Assembly: GCA_951406725.2 (NCBI GenBank)
Contig: OX597823.1
Span: forward strand, 65,472,001 to 65,536,000
Reading direction: 5' to 3'
Length of the DNA: 64,000 bases
Source: Octopus vulgaris
Taxonomy: Eukaryota
The position numbers and the translations under genes were made by a program. Below the pieces are notes generated by a model, which searched no databases, had not been told where the DNA came from, and was given only the letters and a program-made list of their open reading frames with translations. Of the stretch, positions 7,063 to 45,565 are shown piece by piece. Position 1 is the stretch's first letter. Each line of letters starts with the position of its first letter.

Positions 7063-7162
<100 letters not shown>

Positions 7163-7396
7163 GTACATACATAGATGTGTGTGTGTATGCATTTATATTT
7201 GTATGTATAGACACACACACATGTATGTATATACATATATATGTATATAAATGTATATATGTATATATATCTATCTATATAACTATATATATATCTATCT
7301 ATCTACCTATCTCTTTCTCTCTCTCTATATATATATATATGCATATATATATACATATATATACACACATATATATATATATATATATATACATAC

Positions 7397-7427
<31 letters not shown>

Positions 7428-7688
7428 CATACATATACACACATATATATATATATATATATAATTAATCAATATAGGGTGGCAAAAAAATTTTGTAGAA
7501 TTCTTTTGCCACCAGCGGCCTAGTAGGAAAAAATTAAATAGTCATAAACCATTTTTACGTTCAACATCACAATCAAGGAACGGCCATAATAGGCCATTCA
7601 CCCACTAGAAATAACAGCCAAAAGCTTTAACCGCAAAATAACATTAATACCGTAAACCAGGAGAAAATTGAAAAACTTTTACCCTGTA

Positions 7689-7795
7689 ATTTCTTAGACG
7701 ATGCACCGTTTCATCTACCGTTTAATGGTAAACTAACCTGATTAAATTAAATCAAGCCAATCCACCATAGGCCCTTAGACTCATCAGTAAGAAAT
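7689..7795 (-). ncRNA. Type I hammerhead ribozyme, copy 1
   Basis: Minus strand: atttctta-CTGATGA-gtcta...tagat-GAAA-cggtgcatc-GTC-taagaaat. 8-bp stem I, stem II gtcta/tagat, self-complementary stem III acggtgcatcgt, predicted cleavage between 7697 and 7696. Confidence 0.92.
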
Positions 7796-8172
7796 AGCCA
7801 AATCGGAACAGATATTTTTCACGAGGCATTCCTCTTGCTACCTCGGCAATATCTGACCTAAAATTTTCAAATCGTCGCACTCGCGCCAAATTTATCGGCA
7901 GCAAATAAACCACCGATTCCGTTACGGAACTAACCAGAAAATTCATAATTAATCAATATAGGGTGGCAAAAAAATTTTGTAGAATTCTTTTGCCACCAGC
8001 GGCCTAGTAGGAAAAAATTAAATAGTCATAAACCATTTTTACGTTCAACATCACAATCAAGGAACGGCCATAATAGGCCATTCACCCACTAGAAATAACA
8101 GCCAAAAGCTTTAACCGCAAAATAACATTAATACCGTAAACCAGGAGAAAATTGAAAAACTTTTACCCTGTA

Positions 8173-8279
8173 ATTTCTTAGACGATGCACCGTTTCATCT
8201 ACCGTTTAATGGTAAACTAACCTGATTAAATTAAATCAAGCCAATCCACCATAGGCCCTTAGACTCATCAGTAAGAAAT
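8173..8279 (-). ncRNA. Type I hammerhead ribozyme, copy 2
   Basis: Same sequence as copy 1, shifted 484 bp. Predicted cleavage between 8181 and 8180. Confidence 0.92.
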
Positions 8280-8456
8280 AGCCAAATCGGAACAGATATT
8301 TTTCACGAGGCATTCCTCTTGCTACCTCGGCAATATCTGACCTAAAATTTTCAAATCGTCGCACTCGCGCCAAATTTATCGGCAGCAAATAAACCACCGA
8401 TTCCGTTACGGAACTAACCAGAAAATTCATAATTAATCAATATAGGGTGGCAAAAA

Positions 8457-8502
<46 letters not shown>

Positions 8503-10728: not shown

Positions 10729-11976
10729 TCTGGTCATCCCATAGATTCTCTTAAAATTTTGAACAAAGAAAATAAGTGATCAAATGTTATATTTAATTTA
10801 ACTTTAATCATCAACGTACTTTACCTAATTATCTGTGACTTCCTTCCATCTATTTACAAGGCTTTTAATCCGCCTGTCAATATACAACACTTTTGGTTTC
10901 AAATCGAAGAACTCTGAAATGTCAGTTTCGCCTTCCTCCTGGCTTGCAAAATTTATGTCCCCCAAATGATTCTGTAGACTACGAAACAAATGGTAGTCTG
11001 AAGGAGCAAGGTCGGTAGAATAAGATGAATGAGAAATTATTTTCCCAACCAAGCTCATCGATCTATTCTGATGTGATCTTTGCAGTGTAGGGTCACGCAT
11101 TGTCCTGACGAAACATCACTCCTGTTCGATTCACCAAAGCGGCTCCTTTTTTCCTCAAAGCTTGGTTCAAACACTCTAATTACTGACAGTAGACTTGAGC
11201 ATTAATTGTTGCATTAGGTGGTAACAATTCAAAATGAATTACTCCATGAATTTCCCTTCTCGGTTGTGGTTGAGCTTTTTTCCTTTTACCAAGCCACTGT
11301 TTACAACGTTTAGCATTTCGATAGAAGATCCGTCTTCCGTCACCAGTCACAAGTTTATCCAAAAAGAGAGAAATGATTTCGCGAGAATGGAGAGAAGAGC
11401 AGATGTCCACTCGGGATTTGCGGTTGCTTTCGGACAATTCCTGAGGCACACATTTTCCAAGTTTAAGAACCTTTCTAAGTTGTTGAGGATTGCGATGAAC
11501 AGTTGTATGGTTTGAGCTAATTGCCAATTCTTCAACTGATAATGCAGAATTTTCTTCAATTAATGCCTCACGGAGCTTATCATCAATCTCAACTGGAAGT
11601 CCTCTTCGATTTTCATCTTCAAGGCTGAAATTTCTACTTCTGAATTTTGCCAACCCTCTTCTGCAAGATCTCTCATTCAAGCATTATTTCCAATAAACTG
11701 GGTGTATGTTTCGAGTCGCTTTGGCTGCGAGTCTCCTTTTTTTTCTACTCATAAAGCATTATGTGCCTCAAATGTGCTTTGGATGCTTCCATGTTAGAAA
11801 GGGTTTTAATCAGAGAAATTTTAATTCTATTATTCTGTAAAAATAATATTTAATTAGTTTAAATGTACACAAATCCCTAAAATGAATTTTTAATTTCATT
11901 AGAAATTCTACAATAGTATTAAATTTCATTCAATTTTAAAAAAGATAAACTCGGACAGAACTTATGGGATGAACTG

Positions 11977-23039: not shown

Positions 23040-23250
23040 TGTCGATCAGGACAAGAAACAATTGTAGTGGCGGTTTTTTGGACTTTTTATTAAAATTTTA
23101 TGTATTGATTAAGTCTTTCCTTGTTTGTTTTGCAAAATAGTGGTTTTGTCTCTAATAATATTATATAATATTTTACTATAAAATTGGATTTAATCCTAAA
23201 TCTGATTTTTTCCCTGTAAATTTGGATTTATTCCCTAATATTTATTATAT
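23039..23250 (+). mobile_element. 5'-truncated HHR-bearing pseudo-LTR remnant
   Basis: Hairpin ttgtc/gacaa, then GAAA-caatt-GTA (palindromic ACAATTGT stem III). The CUGANGA half is absent. T-rich tail runs into (TA)n. Confidence 0.5.
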
Positions 23251-27198: not shown

Positions 27199-27843
<645 letters not shown>

Positions 27844-44317: not shown

Positions 44318-45565
44318 ATAATAATAATGAAATTATTGTATACAGTGCTCAGGTGCACCACAACTTGTCAGAAAGTGCATATAAAGTACATGCAGTAATG
44401 TAGAAATGTCTGGAAAGTGAACAGTGTATGAGTCAGATACATGCTTGTGTGTGTATGGAGGGGAGAAAATCAAGTGTAGTGTTGGCGAATCTCAGGAAGC
44501 ATGGAAGTTTTGAAGGATGCAGTGCTCCGACAACTAACAACCGATGCCGGCAGTTTGTTCCATGCTTCAGCAACTCTCAGCGTGAAAAAATGTTTCCTGA
44601 AGTCATGGGAGCTGTGCTGTTTTCTTACTTTGTAAATATGTCCACGGGTGTTAGATGGGTGGAGTTTGAAGAGGTGCTCCAAGTTATTGTTTGTGCGATG
44701 GTTGATAATTTTATGGGTGTCTGCCAAGTCAGCTGCCAGACGTCGGAGTTTCAATGTGTCCATGTCCAGGGAAGTAAGGCGTTCAGGATATGGCAAATGC
44801 CTGATGGAGGGTATTCTTTTGGTTGCACGACGCTGAACAGCTTCCAGACGATTGATGTCCTGGGCAAGATAGGGGTTCCAGACTGGTGATGCAAATTCCA
44901 GGTGAGGTCTTACCATAGCTATATAAAGCCGCAGATAGATAGCCGGAGAGCGGCTCACAAAGGATTTGGTGAGTGATGCCAAGACACCCTCAGCCTTCTT
45001 GACAATGTTAGCGATGTGTTTTGTCCAACGCAAATCACTGTCGACAATAACACCCAGGTCACGTTCACTTGAAGACTTTTTGAGACTAGTGTTGTGGAGG
45101 GAGTAGGTGGACGCTGGGTTTCTCCTCCCAAAATGCATGGTGGTACATTTGTCCACAGCCAGCTTGAGCTGCCAGTCCATGATCCACTGCTGCATTGTGT
45201 CCAGGTCTGCTTGCAATAGAGATCCATAGTGTACAGGATTTGACCTCTTTATTTCGAGGTACAGCTTGATGTCATCTGCATATTTCAACACTGTGGCATT
45301 CTTTAAGTTGGCATCTATGTCATTAACATATGCAACAAATAAAAGGGGGCCAAGAACAGATCCCTGCGGCACACCAGATGTCATCTCATAGGGCGAAGAG
45401 TGCTGTCCTAGAACTGTGACAACCTCTTTTCGGCCGAAAATAAAGGACGTTAACCAGTTATAGAGTTAGTCTCTTACACCCAACGCAGAAAGCTTCACCA
45501 TAAGTCTTTTGTGTGGCACAGAGTTAAAAGCCTTATCAAAGTCCAGGTAAACAACATCCACCCAG
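44318..45565 (-). mobile_element. 5'-truncated CR1-clade LINE (RT domain to 3' end)
   Basis: VDVVYLDFDKAFNSVPH, SGVPQGSVLGPLLF, YADD, ERDLGVIVDSDL, VRPHLEFASPVWNP, FFTLRVAEAWNKLP. 3' UTR ends in (ATT)n at ~44318. Confidence 0.95.
44470..45384 (-). pseudogene. LINE ORF2 reverse transcriptase, 304-aa open remnant
   Basis: Uninterrupted frame with QG and YADD motifs. An in-frame stop lies upstream (~45466) and the endonuclease is missing, so it is not autonomous. Confidence 0.9.

What the first reader, a model, noticed from the sequence alone, without database searches (positions are those of the whole stretch)
7461..8458. 484-bp tandem array with two intact hammerhead ribozymes: candidate cephalopod retrozyme producing a circular RNA
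Seen: two apparently identical 484-bp units plus ~30 bp of a third, embedded in (TA)n, with no credible ORF. Each unit has a complete minus-strand type I HHR (7689-7795, 8173-8279) with canonical CUGAUGA and GAAA boxes, a GUC triplet, an 8-bp stem I and a self-complementary stem III (ACGGUGCAUCGU). Established: metazoan non-LTR retrozymes and Penelope-like element pseudo-LTRs are tandem units with type I HHRs; palindromic stem III favours dimeric folding, and double cleavage yields monomers that can circularise. Inference: a minus-strand transcript would be cut at 8181/8180 and 7697/7696, releasing an exact 484-nt RNA. The greater-than-unit, circularly permuted genomic copy is what reverse transcription around a circular template would leave. 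I cannot tell whether this family is already catalogued.
Basis: partly seen in the sequence, partly recalled or inferred. Interest (0 to 1): 0.92.

Follow-up and report, generated by a model that had tools for sequence, protein, structure and literature searches.

The report
Young retrozyme with Penelope-type twin ends
This is one copy of a young, protein-free jumping element whose RNA carries a self-cutting ribozyme, and the way its many copies are laid into the genome suggests that a borrowed reverse transcriptase copied a small RNA circle round and round from two fixed starting points.

Summary
Observation confirmed: 7461-8458 is 2.06 identical 484-bp units, each with a minus-strand type I hammerhead (HHR). 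It is one insertion of a young family A with 987 exact cut sites genome-wide. Sister families keep the three HHR stems by compensatory changes. No Penelope-like (PLE) ORF adjoins 40 loci tested, so it is a non-LTR retrozyme, not a pseudo-LTR. All 28 readable inverted insertions use one of each. Units of one insertion, on both arms, share one haplotype, and 177 of 177 unit junctions are seamless. This matches the PLE two-site 'tail' mechanism, acting on a monomer copied repeatedly, most simply a circle. Not shown: cleavage, a circular RNA, or the partner PLE, which I sought and did not find. A nicked monomer or an uncut multimer remain possible. The scan held no look-alike sequence; it noted ribozyme-free PLE-type arrays in other genomes.

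The parts
7461..8458 (-). Whole one-armed insertion of retrozyme family A: 278 nt (unit 207-484) + full unit + 236 nt (unit 1-236); unit position 1 = first base after the HHR cut
7697..8180 (-). Cut-to-cut 484-nt monomer (predicted linear/circular RNA), 37% GC, identical to the reference haplotype
   Evidence: cleavage itself inferred
8173..8279 (-). Upstream type I hammerhead, cut 8181/8180
7689..7795 (-). Downstream type I hammerhead, cut 7697/7696; 12-nt self-complementary stem III at 7698-7709
7566..7600 (-). Short-site element: hairpin plus about 12 nt ending at unit 131. Not used as the end in this copy; 35 of 80 family ends fall here
7461..7513 (-). Long-site element: hairpin 7478-7513 plus CTATATTGATTAATTAT ending at unit 231-236. 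This is the 3' end of this insertion; 41 of 80 family ends fall here
7461..7565 (-). The 105-nt 'tail' between the two start sites (unit 132-236)
   Evidence: compare PMC11167929
8452..8465 (+). 5' truncation point: A7 tract lengthened to A14, then (TA)n; likely reverse-transcriptase slippage on the U tract (inference)
7098..7463 (.). (TA)n target at the 3' (priming) end
8465..8499 (.). (TA)n target at the 5' end

Best explanation
A non-autonomous, non-coding retrozyme that borrows a Penelope-like (PLE) reverse transcriptase/GIY-YIG endonuclease. Steps: (1) read-through transcription of a tandem copy (inferred; source unknown). (2) Two HHRs cut out a 484-nt monomer, probably helped by the dimer fold of the palindromic stem III (motif and conservation shown, cutting inferred). 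(3) The monomer is closed into a circle, probably by a host ligase as shown for other retrozymes (inferred). (4) A PLE protein, probably a dimer, binds two hairpin-plus-pyrimidine elements 105 nt apart, nicks (TA)n and primes from the 131 site, the 236 site, or both, one on each target strand (end pattern shown; protein inferred). (5) Each subunit copies round the same monomer several times, and the cDNAs are joined 5'-to-5' by short microhomology or to the other target end (array anatomy shown, rolling inferred). The window copy is a one-armed product primed at the 236 site that stopped after 2.06 rounds.
For: Ends: 76 of 80 outer 3' ends in 48 insertions lie at 128-138 (35) or 224-239 (41), and 69 of 80 run into an A/T-only stretch. 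Of 32 inverted insertions, 28 have one short and one long end and none has two of a kind; the other 4 have one unreadable or rearranged end. On contig C1, listed by position, 20 of 35 loci are inverted, all 5'-to-5' (my count). This is the PLE signature: two internal RT start sites bounding a tail, both strands extended, dimer predicted (PMC11167929); tail usually on one end only. An active PLE here does the same in (TA)n (L104). Template: shared-variant differences per 484 nt are 0.50 within an arm, 0.48 between opposite arms and 3.61 between insertions. 16 of 18 insertion-private variants seen in 2 or more units are fixed in all covering units, in 8 insertions on both arms. 177 of 177 junctions are seamless at the cut site. 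Units still carry 0.41 singleton changes each, so later homogenisation is not erasing differences. Ribozyme: across 10 HHRs of families A, B and C, 98% of cells pair and 7 of 11 pairs change on both sides; 0 of 500 shuffles reach this and slid controls pair 28-42%. Stem III stays 12/12 self-complementary in 9 of 10. Family B (59% identical, unit 482-484 nt) and family C use the same two ends.
Against: No call shows cleavage, a unit-length RNA or a circle. The partner PLE was not found: none of 29 GIY-YIG loci has the retrozyme end motif within 1.5 kb downstream, and the one candidate link failed (0 of 7 copies). 5 of 48 insertions are mosaic at common haplotype sites. 16 of 80 arm 5' ends fall in unit positions 1-33 against about 5.5 expected (my count), which hints at a break or stall at the cut site. 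'Private' means private among 48 of roughly 350 loci, most chosen as best BLAST hits. In the Anolis PLE, HHR cleavage was not needed for insertion in vitro. The monomer's MFE sequesters the core, 3.9 kcal/mol below the active fold. The HHRs compared are related, which inflates the shuffle test.
Confidence: 0.65

Rival explanations
1. The template is an uncut linear multimer transcribed from a few uniform master arrays. PLE twin priming is the same, but no circle is needed for each insertion.
For: HHR cutting is dispensable for PLE insertion in vitro. 5' ends cluster just 3' of a cut site. 5 mosaic arrays exist. Source loci were not all sampled.
Against: A new change in one unit becomes array-wide only through a one-unit bottleneck, yet 11 insertions each carry their own fixed variants. 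Linear copying can only keep or shorten arrays, while C1 holds one with 10 cut sites. No mosaic pattern was seen repeated at a second locus.
Confidence: 0.15
2. The template is the cleaved monomer left unligated (a nicked circle): stem I holds its two ends together and the RT jumps the nick exactly, again and again.
For: It explains uniform arrays equally well, and also the excess of 5' ends near position 1.
Against: 177 of 177 junctions have no lost or added base. End-to-end jumps by other non-LTR RTs often leave marks (recalled). Other retrozymes are found as ligated circles in vivo (PMC7229834).
Confidence: 0.13
3. Single units insert and then expand locally by unequal crossover, as the 2026 preprint suggests for retrozyme arrays.
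For: The model is in print, and tandem arrays can expand this way in general.
Against: Opposite arms are as alike as units of one arm (0.48 vs 0.50). Variants in unit 237-484, which a single linear monomer primed at 131 or 236 could not supply, lie on both arms. Singletons are not spread.
Confidence: 0.04
4. The unit is simply the pseudo-LTR of an autonomous PLE, seen as truncated copies.
For: It shows PLE-type ends and target.
Against: No PLE protein match in 40 of 40 loci with about 2.5 kb flanks. Arrays run unit to unit on both arms and end in (TA)n. The PLEs examined have unrelated 3' ends with minimal HHR-like variants.
Confidence: 0.02
5. Assembly artefact or chance motif.
For: The two units are identical; no long reads were examined.
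Against: 987 exact cut sites vs 0 control; locus-specific haplotypes; covariation; contigs of other runs span the junctions and join both ends to (AT)n.
Confidence: 0.01

Closest known systems
Animal non-LTR retrozymes (Cervera and de la Pena 2020, PMC7229834; Li, Clavereau and Pollet 2026, 10.64898/2026.07.22.740005)
   Same: Non-coding, low-GC tandem repeat with a canonical type I HHR in every unit, dispersed as dimers to multimers, co-existing with PLEs; circRNA template and PLE RT are proposed there.
   Different: 484 nt is above the 170-400 nt RNAs of the 2020 paper, though within the 51-972 bp of the preprint. The HHR has a 54-68-nt stem II insert and, in A and B, a G-U pair at 10.1-11.1; family A scores below the Rfam threshold. 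Fixed twin ends, inverted multimeric arms and per-insertion haplotypes are not described in the parts I read ('inverted' occurs 0 times in the 2020 main text). Neither covers a cephalopod in the text read.
Endonuclease-bearing Penelope-like elements and their 'tail' (Frangieh 2024, PMC11167929; Craig 2021, PMC8557442)
   Same: Two internal RT start sites 3' of an HHR, tail on one end only, inverted 5' arm, AT-rich or (TA)n target.
   Different: No ORF; the tail is about 105 nt instead of 30-40; both arms are multimeric; the HHR is canonical rather than minimal.
Non-autonomous Chlamys elements such as MRC1 (passage)
   Same: [quoted passage not shown]
   Different: Those share 3' ends with a known autonomous family and belong to a clade reported to lack HHRs; here the partner is unknown.
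L1 twin priming (recalled, no call)
   Same: Two target strands primed on one RNA give an inverted insertion.
   Different: There the second site is variable and the arms share one RNA length; here both sites are fixed and each arm can exceed unit length.

Membership tests
Non-LTR retrozyme | Tandem repeat with a complete type I HHR in at least two consecutive units | tested here: met
Non-LTR retrozyme | Non-coding, no LTR-element structure, GC below 45-50% | tested here: met
   Longest circular ORF 64 aa; GC 37%; arrays end in (TA)n. PBS and PPT were not searched for separately.
Non-LTR retrozyme | Dispersed multi-locus family, dimers to multimers | tested here: met
   987 exact cut sites; 98 in 35 loci on C1
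Non-LTR retrozyme | HHR structure conserved by compensatory change | tested here: met
Non-LTR retrozyme | Self-cleavage in vitro | not testable with these tools
   Needs transcription assay; only 1 of 9 predicted Xenopus dimers cleaved in the 2026 preprint
Non-LTR retrozyme | Expressed as linear and circular monomer RNA | tested here: inconclusive
   Only assembled contigs of runs guessed to be RNA were available; they cannot show strand, ends or circularity
PLE-mobilised element | Two fixed 3' ends, tail on one end of inverted insertions | tested here: met
   76 of 80 ends; 28 of 28 readable inverted insertions
PLE-mobilised element | Microsatellite or AT-rich target | tested here: met
   69 of 80 ends run into A/T-only sequence
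PLE-mobilised element | 3' region shared with an autonomous PLE of the same genome | tested here: inconclusive
   Not found in the families reached, but only 150 of 6136 GIY-YIG candidates were scored and 46 loci fetched
Pseudo-LTR of an autonomous PLE | Attached to an RT/GIY-YIG ORF | tested here: not met
   0 of 40 loci
Rfam Hammerhead_1 (RF00163) | Score at or above 34 bits | tested here: not met
   22 bits, E 0.016; the long stem II is aligned as an insertion

The most novel reading that the evidence does not exclude
A Penelope-type reverse transcriptase dimer grips one covalently closed 484-nt ribozyme RNA at two sites 105 nt apart, and both subunits roll round it at once, writing ready-made inverted multimers into (TA)n. 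The family would then be a genomic record of two-armed rolling-circle target-primed reverse transcription, kept up by a superfamily of structured circles of conserved size.
Probability: 0.45. Interest if true: 0.8.

Novelty: new variant of a known kind. Interest (0 to 1): 0.6.

Why it matters
How animal retrozymes move is stated as open in both source papers. The 2020 paper proposes a circRNA template and a PLE enzyme without showing either. The 2026 preprint links retrozymes to PLEs by distribution and phylogeny and suggests local amplification for the arrays. This young family carries the PLE two-start-site signature directly, and its arrays look born multimeric from one haplotype. That turns the question into defined tests: known start sites, a known cut site and a known unit. 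It also stretches the PLE tail from 30-40 to about 105 nt and points to a repeated hairpin-plus-pyrimidine element as the RT binding signal. The element itself belongs to a known class.

Tried and rejected
Rfam at gathering scores: no hit in the window. The microRNA and plastid hits at E-value level are the long-site hairpin and are chance. The genome-wide RF00163 search returned other, unrelated HHR families. RNA evidence: no RNA holder on record was listed; the four runs laid were contigs of runs guessed to be RNA, so nothing follows on expression, strand or circularity. Partner search: the dominant two-ORF Neptune-type PLE (781-aa RT-EN; 'Neptune' is my label from its Zn-finger linker and the description) targets (TA)n and has two ends 30 bp apart, but shares no sequence with the unit. 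Family G shares the long-end motif, and one copy (L237) abuts a PLE ORF, but 0 of 7 close copies of that ORF carry the G end, so that link is rejected. Four loci of a further GIY-YIG family, read by eye over 1.5 kb, show no resemblance to the retrozyme ends. Four short retrozyme motifs are absent from the Craig 2021 supplement text. No Pol III A or B box on the HHR strand, which has 8 runs of four or more U, so no promoter was found. Target-site duplications cannot be read in (TA)n. Twenty further family C/D/E loci were not obtained, so those families rest on 7 C loci and pattern listings. Literature searches found no paper on a cephalopod retrozyme or on twin priming of retrozymes; subscription journals and Repbase/Dfam were not searchable, and the supplement of PMC7229834 could not be read, so the family may be catalogued there.

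Full report
1. Observation. The array is there as described: 7461-8458, period 484, 100% matches, inside (TA)n. The minus strand carries two hammerheads at 7689-7795 and 8173-8279, with CUGAUGA, GAAA, a GUC cut site and an 8-bp stem I. Rfam RF00163 finds both at 22 bits (E 0.016), under its gathering score of 34, with the long stem II aligned as an insertion. There is no credible ORF. The cut-to-cut monomer (8180 to 7697, 37% GC) folds well: z -4.7 linear, z -6.3 as a circle. Below, unit position 1 is the first base after the cut.

2. Family. A DNA search of the own genome (2.8 Gb, 227 contigs) gave 194 matches in 40 of 740 candidates scored, nearly all 95-100% identical. The 24-nt cut-site string occurs 987 times exactly, control 0. 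On contig C1 I count 98 sites in 35 loci, which extrapolates to about 350 loci. I analysed 48 insertions: the window, 39 loci and 8. They were chosen as best hits, so they favour young and long arrays. tblastn with a PLE protein from this genome found nothing in the first 40 loci with about 2.5 kb flanks; the other 8 were not tested. The unit is therefore not a pseudo-LTR. Contigs from four other sequencing runs cover the unit; some span the cut site or the permutation point, and two runs show ends joined to (AT)n at 7565-7566 and 7945. They say nothing on expression.

3. Two fixed ends. Of 80 outer 3' ends, 35 lie at unit 128-138 and 41 at 224-239. The other 4 are unreadable, at a contig or fetch edge, or rearranged. 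69 of 80 run into A/T-only sequence. 32 insertions are inverted, 5'-to-5'. In all 28 with both ends readable, one end is short and one is long; independent choice would give this about once in 2^28. On C1, listed by position rather than score, 20 of 35 loci are inverted, all in this orientation (my count). Arms meet at scattered positions, often with 1-5 nt of microhomology. Each end follows a hairpin and a short pyrimidine-rich stretch. In family C the two stretches are nearly the same, CTTATATTGTTGAAT and CTTATATTTATTAAT. The window copy is one-armed, ends at the long site and is truncated at 207.

This is the PLE signature. Frangieh 2024 (PMC11167929; main text read) shows a PLE protein that nicks and extends both strands, starts at two internal RNA sites that bound the genomic tail, and is predicted to be a dimer. 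Craig 2021 (passages) gives the tail as 30-40 bp, usually on one end only, with inverted 5' copies and microsatellite targets. An active two-ORF PLE in this genome does the same with a 30-bp tail (L103, L104). The retrozyme's tail is about 105 nt.

4. One haplotype per insertion. Among 195 units, shared-variant differences per 484 nt are 0.50 within an arm (223 pairs), 0.48 between opposite arms (127) and 3.61 between insertions (17311). Of 18 variants confined to one insertion and seen in two or more units, 16 are fixed in every covering unit (11 insertions); in 8 insertions they lie on both arms. L061 carries three in all four covering units. All 177 head-to-tail junctions are exact. Units also carry 0.41 singletons each. 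A linear monomer primed at 131 or 236 could yield only 131 or 236 nt, so the RT must pass from position 1 back to 484. The simplest template is one monomer copied round several times from both sites.

Against this: 5 of 48 insertions are mosaic at common haplotype sites (L031, L033, L043, L060, L068), and L048 is mixed within its 6-nt insert. These could be polishing errors or real template mixing. 16 of 80 arm 5' ends lie at positions 1-33, about three times expectation (my count), so the RT often stops just past the cut. 'Private' is relative to 48 sampled loci. HHR cutting was dispensable for the Anolis element in vitro. A nicked monomer or uniform uncut multimers therefore stay open. Local expansion by unequal crossover, as discussed in the 2026 preprint (parts 1-3 of 5 read), fits poorly.

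5. Sister families and the ribozyme. A diverged tail fragment led to family B: 1397 candidates, unit 482-484 nt, 59% identical to A, circular z -6.7. The query forced the long end. In 14 of 16 inverted copies among 30 the other arm ends at the short site, and none ends at the long site (my reading). A pattern for the long-stem HHR gives 816 hits against 1 control and shows further subfamilies. Seven family C loci and one B-like locus end at the same two sites where ends are visible, except one short copy. Over 10 HHRs (1 A, 2 B-type, 7 C), 98% of cells pair and 7 of 11 pairs change on both sides; 0 of 500 shuffles match, and slid controls pair 28-42%. These sequences are related, so this is not a probability. 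Stem II also covaries, and stem III stays 12/12 self-complementary in 9 of 10. The monomer HHR fold lies 3.9 kcal/mol above an inactive fold that pairs the core, while the stem III self-dimer is worth -17.5. This fits cutting in multimers and protection of the circle, an idea discussed in PMC4209133 (passages). It is a prediction.

6. Partner. GIY-YIG matches abound (150 of 6136 candidates scored). The families reached have their own ends, and those I read carry minimal HHR-like variants; none of 29 loci has the retrozyme end motif downstream. An abundant short HHR element (family G) shares the long-end motif, and one copy abuts a PLE ORF, but 0 of 7 copies of that ORF end in G. The partner is unidentified. 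Naiad elements targeting (TA)n are listed for two Octopus species (supplement rows) and were not tested.

7. Comparison and verdict. On genomic criteria this is a non-LTR retrozyme (PMC7229834, passages; its supplement could not be read, and may list this family). Cleavage and circular RNA are untested. It works like a PLE passenger. Six literature searches found no cephalopod retrozyme and no report of twin ends or per-insertion haplotypes in retrozymes. The library lacks most subscription journals and repeat databases. The scan's own index held no look-alike; two notes on other genomes describe ribozyme-free PLE-type arrays, which I did not check and which did not shape this reading. My odds: genuine conserved HHR retrozyme about 0.93; PLE-mobilised about 0.9; monomer-length template about 0.78; ligated circle about 0.65. 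Novelty: new variant of a known kind.

Noticed in passing
window 23045-23250 (+); also L233-L242: 5'-truncated copy of family G, an abundant short element (1566 candidates) in (TA)n with its own HHR-like motif, two ends about 82 nt apart, the same long-end motif as the retrozyme, and 5' ends or inversion centres clustered at one hairpin. Its autonomous parent is unknown.
   Followed up: partly
L217:1289-1835: A family A arm fused to a G-like element through an 8-nt microhomology, both with long-type ends: either a deletion between neighbouring insertions or one insertion made from two RNAs.
   Followed up: partly
L232:4300-5000: Family F: another HHR-bearing element with the same long-end motif; 17 exact hairpin matches genome-wide.
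   Followed up: partly
L100-L109: Very young two-ORF PLE (479 aa + 781 aa RT/GIY-YIG), many copies with open frames, repeated GATTGG/TGACGT motifs in its pseudo-LTR, minimal variant HHR, 30-bp tail.
   Followed up: partly
L113, L114, L117, L126, L132 and L118-L140: Other type I HHR families unrelated to A, one with a 60-nt loop II insert and one compact 42-nt form.
   Followed up: no
L202-L218 and pattern listing: Families A, B and C all keep an ATTTAATTTAATT run in the apical loop region of stem II despite about 40% divergence between A and B; role unknown.
   Followed up: no
window 44470-45465 (-): 331-aa open frame that looks like the C-terminal half of a LINE reverse transcriptase (label from recall).
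   Followed up: no
window 11180-11683 (-): 167-aa frame resembling a mariner-type transposase fragment (label from recall).
   Followed up: no
window 27351-27494: Two 71-bp copies of a dispersed repeat that also recurs in many fetched loci.
   Followed up: no
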